From Nannocystis bainbridge (GTDB taxonomy: Bacteria; Myxococcota_A; Polyangia; Nannocystales; Nannocystaceae), in contig NZ_JAQNDL010000003.1 of the NCBI RefSeq assembly GCF_028368995.1, forward strand, positions 672,001-736,000: a stretch of DNA of 64,000 nt. The letters are read 5' to 3'. The translations under genes and the position numbers were made by a program. Shown piece by piece: positions 1,784 to 59,336 of this stretch (its first letter is position 1; each line of letters starts with the position of its first letter). The notes beneath the pieces are model-generated. The model ran no database searches. It worked only from the letters and a program-made list of their open reading frames with translations, and was not told the origin of the DNA.

Positions 1784-3766
1784 GTGACCCCCGTGCCGAC
1801 TCGCCCACGCCGCTCCCCGCCCCGAACCCGCGGCGTGCGCGTCGCGGAGCCGCGCGTCTGCTCCACGCGACCGGCCCGCGCGAACGAACCCGCGAGCCAA
1901 CCCGCGTCCACGAGCCCACTCTCGCAACCTACGTCCGCGCGACTTCGCCTCGCCTCTGCGAGCCCGCTCTCGCAACCTCTGCCCGCACGACTCCGCCTCG
2001 CCGCCGCTTCCCTGCTCTCGCAACCGCCCGCCCGGCCTCGCCCGCCTCGTCCCGCGCCGAGCTCCGCGGTCCGCCTCGCGCTCATGCTCCTGTGCGTGCT
2101 CGCCGGCGCCTGTCGCCCGCGCGCCGAGGAGCCGCCGGCCGAGGACCGCGTCGTCCTCTCGATCGTCGGCACCAGCGACCTCCACGGCCACCTGCGCGCC
2201 CTCCCGCTGCTGGCCGCCCACCTCGAAGCGCTGCGACGCGAGCGCGCCGGGGCCGGCGGCGGCGTCGTCCTGGTCGACGCCGGCGACATGTTCCAGGGCA
2301 CCCTCGAGTCGAACCTCGTCGAGGGCGCCAGCGTCGTCGATGCCTACGCCGCGCTCGGCTACGACGCCGTGACCATCGGCAACCACGAGTTCGATTTCGG
2401 TCCGATCGGCCCGAGGGCTACTGCCACGCCGCCGTTCGGCGCAGGCGAGGCCGACCCGCGCGGGGCCCTGCTGGCGCGCATCGTTCAAGCCCCGTTCCCC
2501 TTCCTGTCGGCCAACCTGCGCCGCAAGGACAGCGCACCGCTGGGCCTCGGCGTGCCCTCGCAGATGATCGAGCGCGCCGGCATCAAGGTCGGCATCGTCG
2601 GCGTGACCACCGAGGCCACCCCGCACACCACCATCGCCGCCAACGTCGCCGACCTCGAGGTCGCCCCGCTGGCCGCCGCGATCGCCAGCGAGGCCGCCTC
2701 GCTGCGCGCCCGCGGGGCCGCGGTGATCGTCGTCGCGGCGCACGCCGGCGGCCGCTGCACCGGCTTCGCCGACCCCGACGACCTGGCGGTCTGCGAGGCC
2801 GACCACGAGATCATGGCCGTCGCCCGCGCCCTCCCGCCCGGCGCCGTCGACGTCATCGTCGCTGGCCACACCCACCAGGCCATGGCCCACCGCGTCGCCG
2901 GTGTGGCGATCGTCCAGTCGTACGCGCTCGGGGTCGCCTTCGGCCGCGTCGACCTGGTCGTCGATAAAACTTCGGGACATGTCGTATCGAACATGGTCCA
3001 CGCGCCACGTCGCCTGTGCGCCGCGGCCGAGGCCGACCCCGACGATCCGCTGTCGGTCTGCGATCCACGCGACGACGACGGCCGGCCCCTGACGCCCGAC
3101 CCCGCGGTGGCCGCCGTGATCGCCCCGGCCCTGGCGACCGCCGACGCGATGCGCGAGCGCCCGCTCGGGCCGACGATCGCCGCCCCGTTCGTGGCCCGAC
3201 GCCGCGGCGAGAACGCCGTCGGCAACCTGTTCGTCGACCTCATGCTGCGGGCCCGGCCCGACGCCGACGTCGCCATCATCAACGGCGGTGGCGTGCGCGC
3301 CGACCTGCCCGCCGGACCGCTGCGCTACGGGGCGCTGTACGAGGCGTTCCCGTTCGACAACCGGTTCGCCCGCGTGAAGCTGCGCGCCGGCGACTTCGCG
3401 GCGATGATCGCCGGCAGCCTCGGCGGCGGCGCCTTCTTCTCGCTCGGCGGCCTGGACGCGGTCGCCACCTGCGACGGCCCCGACCTCCGCGTCAGCCTGC
3501 AGGCCGCCGGGGTCACGCTCGCGGCGGATCAGGAGATCGTGGTGCTCGCCAGCGACTTCCTGGCCACCGGCGGCGACCGGGCCTTCGCCGGCCTGCAGGA
3601 GCGCGGCCTGGCGACCGTCACGCTCGAGGAGGACCCACCGCTGCGCGAGGCCCTGGCCGCCGAGCTCGAGAAGCTCGGCCCCGCCACGCTGGCGCCGCTC
3701 GCCTACCACGACCCCGAGCACCCGCGGATCCGCGCCCCCGGCGAGCCACCGGTCCGCTGCCCGTGA
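1784..3766 (+). CDS. Bifunctional metallophosphatase/5'-nucleotidase (UshA-like) lipoprotein
   Basis: Motifs TSDLHG, DAGDMFQG, GNHEFDFG, FLSAN, GHTH, NGGGVRA and FPFDN; lipobox LAGAC. The true start is probably downstream (ATG 2084 or nearby). Confidence 0.93.
   Translation: MTPVPTRPRRSPPRTRGVRVAEPRVCSTRPARANEPASQPASTSPLSQPTSARLRLASASPLSQPLPARLRLAAASLLSQPPARPRPPRPAPSSAVRLALMLLCVLAGACRPRAEEPPAEDRVVLSIVGTSDLHGHLRALPLLAAHLEALRRERAGAGGGVVLVDAGDMFQGTLESNLVEGASVVDAYAALGYDAVTIGNHEFDFGPIGPRATATPPFGAGEADPRGALLARIVQAPFPFLSANLRRKDSAPLGLGVPSQMIERAGIKVGIVGVTTEATPHTTIAANVADLEVAPLAAAIASEAASLRARGAAVIVVAAHAGGRCTGFADPDDLAVCEADHEIMAVARALPPGAVDVIVAGHTHQAMAHRVAGVAIVQSYALGVAFGRVDLVVDKTSGHVVSNMVHAPRRLCAAAEADPDDPLSVCDPRDDDGRPLTPDPAVAAVIAPALATADAMRERPLGPTIAAPFVARRRGENAVGNLFVDLMLRARPDADVAIINGGGVRADLPAGPLRYGALYEAFPFDNRFARVKLRAGDFAAMIAGSLGGGAFFSLGGLDAVATCDGPDLRVSLQAAGVTLAADQEIVVLASDFLATGGDRAFAGLQERGLATVTLEEDPPLREALAAELEKLGPATLAPLAYHDPEHPRIRAPGEPPVRCP
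1911..2045 (+). repeat. Degenerate 48-bp tandem repeat (about 3 copies)
   Basis: CTCTCGCAACC core at 1919, 1967 and 2015. Confidence 0.7.
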
Positions 3767-3794
3767 CCGCGGCGAGCTCCGGAGGCCCGCGCTG

Positions 3795-57700: not shown

Positions 57701-59336
57701 CGCCGGCCAGCGCGGCAGCGACCTCGACGCCGTCGACGAGTTCGCCGGCGACCTGCTGCCGGCCGACCTGCTGGCGCTCATCCCCTACGACGAGCACCCG
57801 CGCAACGTCGCCCTGGTGGCCCGCCTCGCCGAGCACCTCGGCCTCGACCGCACCCTGGCGATCGCCACCATGGCCGAGCACGTGGTCCCCGACCTCGGCG
57901 TGCTCAAGCGCTACGGCCCCGCCCGCGTGGCCGGCCGCACGCTCGAGTTCATCAACGGCTGCTCGGCCAACGAGCGCGCCGGCTTCCTCTCCAACTGGCG
58001 CCGCACCGGCTGCGACCGCCTCGACCTCGACAAGGAGCCCGACCGCTACGTCGTCACCGTCGTCAACAACCGCGAGGACCGGGTCGCCCGCTCGCAGGTG
58101 TTCGCCCGCCTGCTCGTCGAAGACGTCGCCGCCGACCGCCACGTGCTCATCGGCACCAACACCCAGGGCCTGGTCGGCTACCTGCGCGAGGCCCTCGACG
58201 GCTTCCTCGCCGCCCAGGAGGTCGTGACCGGCGACGACCTGTCCGATGGGCCAGCCGGCCTCGCGCGCGCCCACCAGCGCCTGACCCGCCTGCTCGCCCG
58301 CGTGCGCCCGGTCGCCGCCGAGGCCCTGCCCGGCCAGCTCGTGATCTACGGCCACGGCGCCGGCCGCTCGCTCGCCGGCGTGCGCGACGAGATCGCCCGC
58401 CGCTGCGCGCCCTACCTCGGCGACGACCCGCGCGCCAGCATCAACCTCGATGAGGTCCTGACCGTCGTGCGCAACGAGCTGAACCCGTGGCTGGTCGGCC
58501 TTGTCGAGTCCGCGGACGTGCTCGAGGACAGCGACCCGCCCGAGTGCGTGCGCCTCGCCAGCCCGCAGGAGGTCGCCGATCACTTCCTGCGCCAGCTCGC
58601 GCGCACGGCCGTGTGCGTGCGCCTGCGGGCCCGCGTCGAGGCCGCCTTCGAGGCCGGCGCCGCCGGCATGCCGCTCGGCCTGGTCCACGCCGCCGTGCGC
58701 GACGCCTATCGCCATTTGTTCATGGACCTCGTCGAGGTCGTCGTCGACCCGCTTACCACCGGCGACCAGGTCATCCTCCGCTGCGCCCTCACCGTCCCGC
58801 CCGGCGTGCGCGCCATCCTCATGGGCACCCAGAACATCAAGGGCACCGGCCTCGATTTCGTCTACCGCTGGACCGCCCTCGACCTCGCCCAGCAGAACCT
58901 GCTCGCCCTCGCCAGCCACGAGCCCGAGGTCCGCCGCCAGGCCCTGCAGCGCCTCGCCCAGCCCCCCGACCCCGGCCTCGTCGACGCCGGCCTCGTCGCA
59001 GCCCAGCTCGAGCAGCGCATCCCCTACGACGGCGAAGCCGAGCTGCAGAGCTTCGCCGCCGCCCGCGCCCGCGCCCTCCATCAGACCCGCCTCGCCGACC
59101 TCTCCGCCGGCCCCGCCCGCGGCGGTCGCCACGACAAATTCCTCGGCTGGCTCGAGAGCTGCGTCGAATTCATCGACGGCGCCCGCCGCTACTACATCGC
59201 CCGCCAGGTCATGCGCGACCTCGTCACCCTCCGCATCAGCCACGCCCGCGCCGCCGCCGTCATGCGCGAGCTCGACAGCCGCGCCAAAGGCGGCTGGCTC
59301 ATCCGCGGCCTCCGCCACCGCAACGGCTCGCCGTGA
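54771..59336 (+). CDS. capB: HEAT-repeat protein fused to CapB/PgsB poly-gamma-glutamate synthase (Mur-ligase fold)
   Basis: ATGA overlap; IPLVIGGWGTRGKSG, FAKTTG, TIWEQ, WECMALNP.Y, ITNCYPDHEDIQGP, NNREDR..RS, GTQNIKG parallel CapB motifs; HEAT-like DDASEHVR, DGSARVRAAA. Confidence 0.88.
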   Translation: MTAIIDAITEAILRPLDPLTARLRARAAAALAARLAASADVPPALRPDLFELAGLRRAPERRALVTEHALKDIVARTCLCIHVLRREHALLQSREAELVAAALAAKDPSTQQAVLAAAIRRHARGFRQRQADLRALGRWLDHDALRERLAAEQALLEEQVELAVRLVGAAPAEVAYDERAEVFPCLISQLTWLPRFTLRLACLEALSALLDRLAEAGQAHELDLDLDLRLATAARGRAGDSAEHPWVQAAALALLDRVSLDAPEGSRFAIPQLHLRAGARREHRGYAPTAEALELAEARLISPRGGPRDFLVRALVVEFLARRATRGRDPIRCVDILFNAVDDASEHVRICLCAAAVAVRPVDPRGVALLTILAGDGSARVRAAAVRGLLRGPIDAPLLAPLLADEASPLVLRLACAEIVKMSAGTWHADPGNFLRLSAALVTIATRDDHPPVVHEAAAAALQAIDSALDPARRAWTDVFAEALSRTPPGHAVRVSLRRPDLPPPGDAAWLGRILAALTREDWGIDAHVRKDSILLCRGDRWGARLWRAWHELRHPGPNKRQGFSHVRGRILRGDLRAHSGRLHEVVATEVPGERVHSEREGGWGRHLPLVDDLLGLPVLRPRVVRVVSSQGTTELRWRRPLLQRIAAHLRLTVRYAQLAELRRQALDALEPAARAAYARVLREQYGVELYFVPHPAPCASLARTAPAQLLQLFGAGEPRGEPVYTSVDIPVTQSVSLAAEVARAVSSPQPAAASAMTGLGALLVFAPPELPDLAQPVLGDIFTLSGSSQTALAYFLAALAAMLFIGTYLRTRSIARDRAAIPLVIGGWGTRGKSGTERLKAGLFHGLGYRVFAKTTGCEAMFIHAQPRGQAMEIYTFRPYGKATIWEQRTLLNLAAKTGSDVFLWECMALNPAYVEILQHHWMRDDAATITNCYPDHEDIQGPAGMDVAEVIARFVPTTARTVTSEINFLPVLRQAAGQRGSDLDAVDEFAGDLLPADLLALIPYDEHPRNVALVARLAEHLGLDRTLAIATMAEHVVPDLGVLKRYGPARVAGRTLEFINGCSANERAGFLSNWRRTGCDRLDLDKEPDRYVVTVVNNREDRVARSQVFARLLVEDVAADRHVLIGTNTQGLVGYLREALDGFLAAQEVVTGDDLSDGPAGLARAHQRLTRLLARVRPVAAEALPGQLVIYGHGAGRSLAGVRDEIARRCAPYLGDDPRASINLDEVLTVVRNELNPWLVGLVESADVLEDSDPPECVRLASPQEVADHFLRQLARTAVCVRLRARVEAAFEAGAAGMPLGLVHAAVRDAYRHLFMDLVEVVVDPLTTGDQVILRCALTVPPGVRAILMGTQNIKGTGLDFVYRWTALDLAQQNLLALASHEPEVRRQALQRLAQPPDPGLVDAGLVAAQLEQRIPYDGEAELQSFAAARARALHQTRLADLSAGPARGGRHDKFLGWLESCVEFIDGARRYYIARQVMRDLVTLRISHARAAAVMRELDSRAKGGWLIRGLRHRNGSP

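What the first reader, a model, noticed from the sequence alone, without database searches (positions are those of the whole stretch)
2975..58260. Highly iterated palindrome TGTCC-N4-GGACA on a strict 14-bp lattice in intergenic and coding DNA
Seen: perfect TGTCC-N4-GGACA at 3800, 6802, 8707, 12863, 13628, 30854, 32325, 32399, 32413, 33730, 36454, 43572, 47266, 47632, 47818, 51768, 51918, 52391, 52505, 52613, 52640 and 57101 (22 by eye). A rough mononucleotide expectation at ~74% GC is about 0.05. Many more degenerate arrays of 2-7 decamers (GGACA[TG]GTCC-like) keep the 4-bp spacer. Inside genes the motif gives AT-richer patches and recurrent peptides (DMS, TCP, GHV, RTG), for example in uvrD near 16383 and capB near 54969. 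Inference: a genome-wide site for an abundant cooperative DNA-binding protein (chromosome organisation, like matS/SBS/NBS), or a HIP1/DUS-like sequence maintained by recombination, modification or uptake.
Basis: partly seen in the sequence, partly recalled or inferred. Interest (0 to 1): 0.8.

Follow-up and report, generated by a model that had tools for sequence, protein, structure and literature searches.

The report
Clade-specific iterated 14-bp spaced palindrome
This soil bacterium and its closest relatives carry thousands of copies of one short spaced palindrome, mostly just after gene ends but also inside genes, kept by selection and probably read by an unknown DNA-binding protein.

Summary
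TGTCC-N4-GGACA occurs 23 times in the window against 0.06 expected. It occurs 1987 times in the 11-Mb genome, against 0-30 for other spacers apart from the lattice echo at N18 (379). About 10,000 copies exist if one or two mismatches are allowed. Units abut on an exact 14-bp lattice in chains of up to 8.

The motif was found repeatedly only in three related genera among 301 genomes of the class. It is no part of a longer mobile element, and no RAYT transposase gene was found.

Copies concentrate after stop codons. 56% of convergent spacers hold one, against 15% of divergent spacers. Yet 796 perfect copies lie in genes, against 18-36 after synonymous codon shuffling. There the arms are conserved at silent sites and the 4-bp centre is not.

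Loop composition and mismatch types show no transcription-strand asymmetry, and the spacer is rigid.

Best reading (about 0.4): a dyad-symmetric site read as double-stranded DNA by an unidentified dimeric protein. It resembles HIP1 in genes and REP/BIME arrays between genes. No binding protein or RNA data were obtained. I file it as a new variant of a known kind.

The parts
3800..3813 (.). perfect unit, convergent spacer, 34 nt after a stop codon
3828..3897 (.). chain of 5 lattice units; three successive units share the same 4-bp centre (cctt), which indicates recent 14-bp slippage
6802..6815 (.). perfect unit in a tandem spacer, identical in G001, G005 and G010
8707..8720 (.). perfect unit inside the Ser/Thr kinase gene 6918-11183, with a 10-bp palindromic stem; relatives carry a 1-mismatch form
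12863..12876 (.). perfect unit inside the amidohydrolase gene 11428-13002; arms kept in two of three relatives (one mismatch in G010) while the centre differs in all three
13620..13649 (.). 13-bp-stem palindrome built on the unit at 13628, between convergent genes; RNA fold of 13618-13651 gives -25.7 kcal/mol
25081..25308 (.). three 1-mismatch units (25081, 25183, 25295), each inside a repeated module about 100 bp long in a convergent spacer
30854..30867 (.). perfect unit, tandem spacer, 57 nt after a stop codon
32325..32352 (.). perfect unit starting 5 nt after the stop of gene 31595-32320, followed by a degenerate unit
32399..32426 (.). two abutting perfect units, lying in a duplicated copy of the gene's 3' end plus array
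33722..33751 (.). 13-bp-stem palindrome built on the unit at 33730, between convergent genes; kept in 5 of 6 congeners with four different centres; RNA fold of 33720-33753 gives -23.1 kcal/mol
36454..36467 (.). perfect unit inside the beta-propeller gene 35294-37435; it differs from five congeners by one base (T here, G there)
43572..43585 (.). perfect unit inside the CapC-domain gene 41122-44310; arms identical in three relatives, centre TCGC here and TTTC there
47165..47206 (.). chain of 3 lattice units at the start of the 838-nt spacer 47148-47985
47266..47279 (.). perfect unit in spacer 47148-47985
47632..47645 (.). perfect unit in spacer 47148-47985
47818..47831 (.). perfect unit in spacer 47148-47985
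51752..51931 (+). hypervariable in-frame linker of ORF 49375-54774, holding perfect units at 51768 and 51918 and a 1-mismatch unit at 51819
52309..52676 (+). second hypervariable in-frame linker of the same ORF, holding perfect units at 52391, 52505, 52613 and 52640 and 1-mismatch units at 52346 and 52547; encodes D-M/L-S-x-x-T peptides
57101..57114 (.). perfect unit inside ORF 54771-59336; arms identical in three relatives, centre differs by one base

Best explanation
TGTCC-N4-GGACA is a highly iterated, clade-specific recognition site that acts at the level of DNA. I think it is read as double-stranded DNA by a dyad-symmetric (dimeric), sequence-specific protein that remains unidentified.

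Each arm would be one half-site. The best-kept bases are T1, G2 and C4. The flanks extend the site to about RCATGTCC-YYRR-GGACATGY.

The fixed 4-bp centre puts the two best-kept G/C positions 11 bp apart, about one helical turn. Units that abut exactly share ACATGT and form arrays with a 14-bp period. Three units span 42 bp, or four helical turns. Such arrays would let neighbouring dimers bind cooperatively.

Sites are kept by selection wherever they are tolerated. That means mostly the DNA just after stop codons, above all between convergent genes. It also means tolerant positions inside genes, where silent codon positions are used to spell the arms. Arrays grow by 14- or 28-bp slippage, and their centres then drift.

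Shown here: the enrichment, the rigid spacing and lattice, the clade restriction, the lack of a longer element, the strand symmetry, the silent-site conservation and the gene-end bias.

For: 1. Rigid spacing. N4 gives 1987 copies, against 16 for N3 and 5 for N5. Period-14 chains number 1982 of length 2 or more, against 4-5 at periods 13 and 15 and 4 for the reversed control. A plain hairpin would tolerate other loop lengths.

2. Strand symmetry in spacers transcribed one way. Centre composition is mirror-complementary: position 5 is A .05, C .45, G .18, T .32 and position 8 is T .05, G .43, C .19, A .34. One-mismatch units give G-U 324 against A-C 277 on the sense strand in tandem spacers, and 295 against 370 in genes.

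3. Half-sites vary largely independently. Pair-preserving double changes number 596 against 301 expected. Non-preserving doubles at the same pair number 653 against 443 expected. Copies in genes show no flank complementarity above independence.

4. The centre favours YY|RR with a central Y-R step and shows no pairing preference (ratios 0.96 and 0.94).

5. Selection inside genes:
- 796 perfect copies against 18-36 after synonymous shuffling.
- Between G000 and G001, arm third-codon positions differ at 24/430 (5.6%), against 14.4% background and 22/136 (16.2%) in a spacer-5 control.
- Centre third positions differ at 39/124 (31.5%) (Fisher p = 8e-9, 2e-4 and 1e-6).
- Arms are identical in G001 for 25 of 33 perfect genic units, against 45% of phase-matched random 14-mers.

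6. Long-term maintenance in fast-changing spacers:
- All 14 scorable unit-bearing spacers of the window hold a unit in at least one of three congeners, and 9 of 14 in all scored.
- 15 of 16 unit-free spacers stay unit-free.
- Meanwhile the sequences themselves are unalignable.

7. Not a mobile element. Only 47 of 1987 units share 40 nt or more with a distant unit. No gene family flanks them.

8. Most single units would be weak RNA hairpins, at -5.6 to -9.2 kcal/mol. 921 of 1987 have no pairing beyond 5 bp.
Against: No binding protein was identified. Genes next to the 6 arrays found in divergent spacers encode no recognisable DNA-binding protein.

A subset of intergenic copies behaves like true hairpins:
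- Where both outer arms carry one mismatch, 47 of 84 are compensated, against 18.2 +/- 3.1 expected.
- 22% of intergenic units have stems of 8 bp or more.
- Two in the window fold at -23 and -26 kcal/mol.

The peak just after stop codons and the 13-fold decline across tandem spacers fit an RNA 3'-end role as well as avoidance of promoters.

G-U exceeds A-C slightly in tandem spacers (324 against 277).

A 14-bp period is not a whole number of helical turns.

Genome-wide gene contexts rest on my own ORF caller. The conservation tests use one pair of genomes over 306 kb, plus three relatives over the window.
Confidence: 0.4

Rival explanations
1. REP/BIME-like hairpin elements act in RNA or single-stranded DNA. 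The units and arrays would be transcribed at gene 3' ends and fold into hairpins. These would stop exonucleases, help termination or tune expression of the upstream gene. The conserved arm sequence would reflect a hairpin-binding protein.
For: - Strong gene-end bias. Density is 1.56 per kb in convergent spacers, 0.62-0.68 in tandem and 0.20 in divergent.
- 747 of 1329 convergent spacers hold a unit.
- 2698 of 8160 genes have a unit within 300 nt after the stop, with many 5-30 nt away.
- There is a 13-fold decline from stop to next start in tandem spacers.
- Canonical terminators are rare, 95 of 6142 against 49 in the antisense control, so another 3'-end device would be useful.
- A subset has long compensated stems (47 of 84 against 18 expected; folds of -23 and -26 kcal/mol).
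- Arrays of alternating palindromes recall BIMEs (recalled).
Against: - No strand asymmetry of centres and no clear G-U excess.
- Loop length is rigid.
- 796 perfect copies lie evenly along genes with silent-site conservation, which a 3'-end element does not need.
- Most units are weak hairpins.
- Where a canonical terminator is present, units lie after it more often (37) than before (14) or within it (14).
- Only 9 of 102 tRNA genes are followed by a unit.
- No RAYT was found in 6 genomes.
- No Rfam family was found in the window.
Confidence: 0.25
2. A molecular drive without cell-level function. The motif would spread because DNA carrying it is favoured by uptake and recombination (as with USS/DUS), or by a sequence-biased repair or conversion system. 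It would accumulate wherever it does least harm.
For: - Density of about one degenerate unit per kb.
- Presence in genes in tolerated frames (454, 278 and 64 by frame) and in disordered linkers.
- Pile-up in the least constrained DNA and avoidance of promoter-proximal DNA.
- Clade restriction with graded copy number: 87-295 copies in genera g2 and g4 against 1987 here.
- Lower density in lower-GC 50-kb windows (r = 0.57), as expected if newly acquired DNA lacks it.
- ComEC is present, though that is nearly universal.
- USS dyads at gene ends are described in PMC5217627 (passages read).
Against: - Known uptake sequences are asymmetric words (recalled). Here the half-site alone is not enriched: TGTCC occurs 12351 times, near my mononucleotide estimate of about 10,000 (my arithmetic). 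Only the exact 5-4-5 dyad counts.
- One-mismatch neighbours are enriched about 20-fold (4258 against 201) rather than depleted, which argues against a very-short-patch type repair.
- The exact abutment in arrays is not predicted.
- For HIP1, Xu et al. argue from conservation at orthologous sites for selection rather than continual replenishment (abstract read).
Confidence: 0.17
3. A miniature mobile element (MITE- or REP-type) is copied and pasted by a transposase.
For: - High copy number, intergenic clustering and arrays.
- Unit-bearing spacers are length-hypervariable.
- Units sit in locally duplicated modules.
Against: - No similarity beyond the 14 bp. Only 47 of 1987 units have a distant partner sharing 40 nt or more, mostly gene duplicates.
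- 189 different centres are seen.
- PF01797 was not found in G000 or in 5 relatives, while the control genomes ring.
- There is no multi-copy gene family among the 50 genes flanked on both sides.
- The genic copy at 36454 differs from its orthologues by a point change, not an insertion.
Confidence: 0.03

Closest known systems
HIP1 (GCGATCGC), the highly iterated palindrome of cyanobacteria
   Same: Both are short palindromes over-represented by one to two orders of magnitude and more. Both occur in genes and between them, are conserved at orthologous sites, are restricted to one lineage and have no known function. This rests on PMC5861425, abstract and outline read, which reports 15- to 300-fold over-representation, conservation within and between ORFs and a suggested chromosome-structure role. 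Here: 32-fold over a synonymous null and silent-site conservation.
   Different: HIP1 is a continuous 8-mer. This motif is a 5-4-5 spaced dyad with a free centre, forms exact 14-bp lattice arrays and is about 8-fold denser in convergent than in divergent spacers. Long-range periodicity and any link to a methyltransferase were not tested here.
REP sequences and BIME arrays of enterobacteria and pseudomonads
   Same: Both are extragenic palindromes that sit after genes and between convergent genes, singly or in ordered arrays of alternating dyads. This is recalled, and also seen in the start of the abstract of PMC3184786 in the search listing. Gene-end bias and arrays are shown here.
   Different: As I recall, REPs are 20-40 nt imperfect palindromes that are extragenic by definition and are often tied to a RAYT transposase. 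Here the unit is 14 bp with a free centre, 796 of 1987 perfect copies lie in genes, and no RAYT was found in 6 genomes. No RNA-type strand asymmetry is seen either.
Uptake signal sequences (USS of Pasteurellaceae, DUS of Neisseria)
   Same: About one copy per kb, presence in genes in tolerated frames, dyads at gene 3' ends and lineage-specific words (PMC5217627, passages read; the rest recalled).
   Different: USS and DUS are asymmetric 9-12-mers that only form dyads when paired. Here the single arm is not enriched, and only the exact spaced dyad is. Uptake bias is untested.
Tandem operator arrays bound cooperatively (MetJ met-boxes, omega heptads, Fur hexamers)
   Same: Short dyad or repeat units abut on an exact lattice, with array lengths of 2 to about 8 (recalled; lattice shown here).
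   Different: Those are a few operators in promoters of a regulon. Here there are about 10,000 sites, depleted near gene starts. No protein is known.
matS, SBS and NBS chromosome-organisation sites
   Same: Palindromic 12-14-bp sites for dimeric proteins, scattered over a chromosome (recalled).
   Different: Those number tens of sites confined to chromosome regions. Here copy number is two orders higher, all five contigs carry the motif, and there is a gene-end bias.

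Membership tests
REP/BIME with RAYT | Imperfect palindrome of about 20-40 nt, restricted to extragenic DNA | tested here: not met
   The unit is 14 bp. 796 of 1987 perfect copies lie in predicted genes whose flanks have coding-type GC3 of 0.92.
REP/BIME with RAYT | Cognate RAYT (Y1 transposase, PF01797) in the genome, flanked by the repeats | tested here: not met
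   No PF01797 match in G000 or in G001, G003, G005, G010 and G056, while 6 of 14 control genomes ring. No multi-copy family occurs among the 50 genes flanked on both sides.
REP/BIME with RAYT | Location after genes, and ordered arrays of alternating dyads | tested here: met
Highly iterated palindromes (HIP1 type) | Palindrome over-represented far above composition- and codon-aware nulls, both in genes and between them | tested here: met
   23 against 0.06 in the window. 1987 against 3 for the reversed control. 796 against 18-36 after synonymous shuffling.
Highly iterated palindromes (HIP1 type) | Conservation at orthologous sites above matched controls | tested here: met
   Arm third-codon positions diverge at 5.6%, against 14.4% background and 16.2% in the spacer-5 control. 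25 of 33 arm sets are identical, against 45% in controls. This rests on one genome pair over 306 kb.
Highly iterated palindromes (HIP1 type) | The HIP1 word itself (GCGATCGC), a cyanobacterial host and 10-90-kb periodicity | tested here: not met
   The word differs. The host is probably Myxococcota, judged from the nearest Atlas clusters only. Periodicity was not tested.
Uptake signal sequences (USS/DUS) | Preferential uptake of DNA carrying the word by a competent cell | not testable with these tools
   Only ComEC presence was seen, and that is nearly universal.
Uptake signal sequences (USS/DUS) | An asymmetric word enriched on its own, with dyads a secondary arrangement | tested here: not met
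   Single arms occur about as often as composition predicts (12351 and 11418; the expectation is my arithmetic). Enrichment needs the exact 5-4-5 dyad.
MITE | A copied element with terminal inverted repeats and shared internal sequence | tested here: not met
   Only 47 of 1987 units share 40 nt or more with a distant unit. 189 different centres are seen.
Intrinsic (Rho-independent) terminators | GC-rich stem followed by a T-tract on the transcribed strand | tested here: not met
   No T enrichment downstream of units in tandem spacers. 921 of 1987 units have only a 5-bp stem.
Operator or organisation site of a dimeric DNA-binding protein | Dyad symmetry with fixed half-site spacing and independent half-sites | tested here: met
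   A subset of intergenic copies does show compensated outer arms.
Operator or organisation site of a dimeric DNA-binding protein | A protein shown to bind the site | not testable with these tools
   No candidate was found.

The most novel reading that the evidence does not exclude
The arrays are DNA-level gene-end boundary elements. A clade-specific protein would polymerise on the 14-bp lattice between convergent and tandem transcription units. There it would act as a roadblock to read-through or as a barrier to supercoil spread, in a genome that has almost no canonical intrinsic terminators (95 of 6142 gene ends against 49 in the control). The single sites inside genes would be lower-occupancy members of the same nucleoid system. 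No genome-wide protein-roadblock termination or insulator system of this kind is known to me in bacteria.
Probability: 0.12. Interest if true: 0.85.

Novelty: new variant of a known kind. Interest (0 to 1): 0.6.

Why it matters
Highly iterated short palindromes such as HIP1 have resisted functional explanation for decades. This case offers several handles that HIP1 lacks:
- a spaced dyad with a rigid 4-bp centre, which gives clean spacer mutants as controls;
- exact lattice arrays, which give a ready-made pull-down bait;
- a sharp gene-end bias;
- a narrow phylogenetic boundary, with three genera carrying the motif and 14 sampled sister genera of the same family in which it was not found. That boundary makes phylogenetic profiling for the reader protein feasible.

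It also shows silent codon positions being constrained by a non-coding DNA signal in hundreds of genes. This matters for codon-usage and selection analyses in these large, natural-product-rich genomes.

Tried and rejected
- Mobile-element readings were rejected. No RAYT was found, no flanking gene family and no longer shared element.
- A canonical terminator reading was rejected. There is no T-tract and the stems are weak.
- Looking for an autoregulated binder gave nothing. Only 6 divergent spacers hold arrays, and their 12 flanking proteins show hydrolase, glycosyltransferase, acyl-CoA dehydrogenase, group II intron RT, histidine kinase and cupin domains or none. None is DNA-binding.
- RNA evidence was not obtained. 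No RNA holder was listed for the stretch.
- Rfam gave no family at gathering score in the window.
- The literature gave nothing on this motif. There were no hits for the motif written in six ways, nor for TGTCC + GGACA + myxobacteri. A search pairing 'repetitive extragenic palindromic' with five myxobacterial genus or class names listed 10 of 232 papers, none of which held the REP term. These searches cover open-access PMC and bioRxiv only.
- The search for related loci with the UvrD protein returned only distant relatives at 34-46% identity from other phyla and was of no use.
- A viral-contig scan for a 17-specified-base version found 14 contigs with a single site each. I judge this near chance for a collection of that size, though I did not compute the expectation.
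- Whether lattice arrays exist in genera g2 and g4 is unresolved. Two abutting perfect units were found in 0 of 5 genomes there, but only 1-16 times in genus g1 genomes with about ten-fold more units.
- The ori/ter distribution was not assessed because the five contigs are unoriented.

Full report
**1. The observation.** A pattern search finds 23 perfect TGTCC-N4-GGACA in the 64-kb window. Dinucleotide-preserving shuffles give 0.06. The window is G000:C2:672001-736000 of an 11.05-Mb genome in five contigs, with 71-72% GC.

Genome-wide, spacer 4 gives 1987 copies. Every other spacer from 0 to 30 gives 30 or fewer, except N18 (379), which is two units read across. Opposite-orientation arms peak only at 0, 14 and 28 bp (956, 638, 275). 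Same-orientation arms peak at 9 and 23 bp (1321, 637). That is a strict 14-bp lattice.

- With 0, 1 and 2 arm mismatches there are 1987, 4258 and 7530 units.
- The reversed pattern gives 3, 201 and 3382.
- So about 10,000 units are real.
- Chains at period 14 number 1982 of length 2 to 8. The control gives 4, and periods 13 and 15 give 4-5.

The primary unit is the 5-4-5 dyad, not the decamer. Of 956 GGACATGTCC decamers, 760 have a lattice arm within one mismatch and only 33 stand alone. Of the 1987 dyads, 1145 have no such neighbour.

**2. Anatomy.**
- Arm conservation runs G2 >> T1 > C4 > T3 ~ C5.
- The flanks extend the dyad to RC(A/C)-TGTCC...GGACA-(T/G)GY.
- The centre is free, with 189 of 256 tetramers seen, but is biased to YYRR. 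It shows no pairing preference.
- There is no similarity beyond the unit. Only 47 of 1987 units share 40 nt or more with a distant unit.
- Some arrays have identical centres, for example eight in a row at C3:1085845 and three at window 3842-3883. So arrays grow by slippage of 14 or 28 bp.

**3. Where it sits.** I used my own codon-usage ORF caller (8160 genes, 84% coding).
- 1175 perfect units are intergenic, 796 lie in genes and 16 straddle a boundary.
- Density per kb is 1.56 in convergent spacers, 0.62-0.68 in tandem, 0.20 in divergent and 0.086 in genes.
- A unit with at most one mismatch is present in 747 of 1329 convergent spacers. It is present in 24-28% of tandem and 15% of divergent spacers. 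Controls give 0.3-1.6%.
- 2698 of 8160 genes have a unit within 300 nt after the stop.
- In tandem spacers of 150-600 nt, counts fall from 230 in the first decile after the stop to 18 in the last decile before the next start. In divergent spacers the units sit in the middle.
- There is no T-tract after units.
- Canonical terminators are rare by my strict scan, at 95 of 6142 gene ends against 49 in the antisense control. Where both occur, units lie after the terminator 37 times, before it 14 times and inside it 14 times.
- Only 9 of 102 tRNA genes are followed by a unit.

**4. Copies inside genes are real and selected.**
- Flanks of genic units have GC3 of 0.92, against 0.945 for random gene windows. 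Copies are spread evenly along genes. The reading frames are used 454, 278 and 64 times.
- Synonymous-codon shuffling that keeps each protein and its codon usage gives 18-36 copies, against 796 observed.
- Over 306 kb aligned between G000 and congener G001, arm third-codon positions in 113 genic units differ at 24/430 (5.6%).
- That compares with 14.4% background and 22/136 (16.2%) in a spacer-5 control.
- Centre positions differ at 39/124 (31.5%) for third positions and 19% for first positions (Fisher tests).
- Arms are identical in G001 for 25 of 33 perfect genic units, against 45% of phase-matched random 14-mers.
- The window alone with three congeners shows the same pattern.

In ORF 49375-54774 the units cluster in two hypervariable linkers. 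Their lengths differ from three congeners by +456, -21, +15, -192, +135 and -33 nt. All six are multiples of three, so the linkers are translated. There the units spell D-M/L-S-x-x-T.

The genic unit at 36454 differs from five congeners by a single base, with no indel.

**5. Intergenic dynamics.** Flanking genes align at 83-93% identity across congeners, but unit-bearing spacers do not align.

Presence per spacer is nonetheless kept:
- All 14 scorable unit-bearing spacers of the window hold a unit in at least one of three congeners, and 9 in all scored.
- 15 of 16 unit-free spacers stay unit-free.
- Unit-free spacers also keep their length, while unit-bearing spacers vary several-fold.

The palindrome at 33722-33751 is kept in 5 of 6 congeners with four different centres. 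The spacer after gene 31595-32320 holds a duplicated copy of the gene's 3' end plus its array. G005 and G007 carry more such copies.

**6. Distribution among genomes.**
- The 18-base form CATGTCC-N4-GGACATG occurs 16-369 times in 7 of 7 sampled genomes of the window's genus.
- It occurs 2-6 times in 5 of 5 genomes of genus g2 and 1-43 times in 7 of 7 of genus g4.
- It was found in none of 41 genomes of 14 other genera of the family.
- In 301 genomes of the class (at least 80% complete), only these three genera have repeated matches. Four other genomes have one match each, as the reversed control also does.
- The 14-base unit counts 87, 161 and 295 in g2 and g4 genomes, against 4-6 in two other genera. 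Controls give 1-10.
- The nearest Atlas clusters of one window protein are mostly Myxococcota. I take that as a weak pointer to the phylum.

**7. DNA or RNA, duplex or hairpin.** In spacers transcribed one way, the centre composition is mirror-complementary. One-mismatch units show G-U 324 against A-C 277 on the sense strand. In genes the figures are 295 against 370. An RNA hairpin under selection should show a clear G-U excess and need not have a symmetric loop.

Pair-preserving double changes in the core are only two-fold over independence (596 against 301). Non-preserving doubles are 1.5-fold over (653 against 443). Flank complementarity is 1.05-1.2-fold over independence in spacers and absent in genes.

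Single units fold at -5.6 to -9.2 kcal/mol. Together with the rigid 4-bp centre, this points to sequence-specific reading of duplex DNA by a symmetric reader.

Against that, a subset of intergenic units are true long palindromes:
- Compensated outer arms number 47 of 84, against 18.2 +/- 3.1 expected.
- Two in the window fold at -23 and -26 kcal/mol.

This subset may reflect a real hairpin role at some gene ends. It may also reflect palindrome-correcting template switching (inference).

**8. Explanation and rivals.**
- I put 0.4 on a site for an unidentified dimeric DNA-binding protein, kept by selection, with arrays as cooperative platforms.
- I put 0.25 on REP/BIME-like hairpins acting in RNA.
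- I put 0.17 on a drive of the uptake-sequence or biased-repair type.
- I put 0.03 on a mobile element.
- The remainder goes to unlisted causes.

The gene-end bias does not separate these. It fits a 3'-end function, and it equally fits exclusion from promoters and 5' leaders. The one-mismatch neighbours are enriched about 20-fold, not depleted. That argues against a very-short-patch type repair drive.

**9. Comparison with what is known.** In genes the motif behaves like HIP1 of cyanobacteria, which is over-represented, conserved within and between ORFs and of unknown function (PMC5861425, abstract and outline read). Between genes it looks like REP/BIME. But it fails the extragenic and RAYT criteria.

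It shares density and gene-end dyads with USS/DUS (PMC5217627, passages read). But its single arm is not enriched. Statements about REP, BIME, RAYT, MetJ, matS, NBS and SBS are recalled and were not checked in papers here.

Searches for the motif in open-access full text found nothing. So I know of no description, within the limits of that library.

**10. Verdict.** This is a real, strongly non-random, clade-specific, highly iterated spaced palindrome under selection. Its reader and function are not established. I rate it a new variant of a known kind, with interest 0.6.

Noticed in passing
window 59340-61860: A segment holds an AAA_21/AbiEii-type ATPase gene (59380-60558) and a neighbouring ORF (60565-61374). 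It aligns in G010 but not in G001 or G005, and it lies in the lowest-GC part of the window (0.689). It may be a variable defence-type insertion. No perfect unit lies beyond 57114.
   Followed up: no
window 32290-32430: The last ~25 nt of gene 31595-32320 plus the following unit array are duplicated in tandem. G005 and G007 carry further copies of the same module.
   Followed up: partly
window 25060-25320: A convergent spacer holds tandem modules of about 100 bp, each carrying one 1-mismatch unit (TGACC-N4-GGACA). The orthologous spacers in three congeners are 2.2-2.5 kb, against 709 nt here.
   Followed up: no
window 44310-59336: Three very large ORFs (945, 1799 and 1521 aa) and a 438-aa ORF (47986-49302) have no Pfam hit. 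They lie downstream of a 1062-aa protein with a CapC domain. The 1799-aa ORF has hypervariable in-frame linkers.
   Followed up: partly
whole genome G000: Canonical stem-plus-T-tract terminators are very rare by a strict scan, at 95 of 6142 gene ends against 49 in the antisense control. Clear ones follow tRNA-Met (C1:20972-21050) and tRNA-Val (C1:4432153-4432224).
   Followed up: partly
L126:1-1128 (G000:C2:1697259-1698386, minus strand): A group II intron reverse transcriptase/maturase gene (RVT_1 + GIIM) lies next to a 1286-nt spacer with three units.
   Followed up: no
window spacers: Spacers without units keep their length to within a few bases across four congeners (for example 171/173/173/172 nt). 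Unit-bearing spacers vary several-fold.
   Followed up: partly
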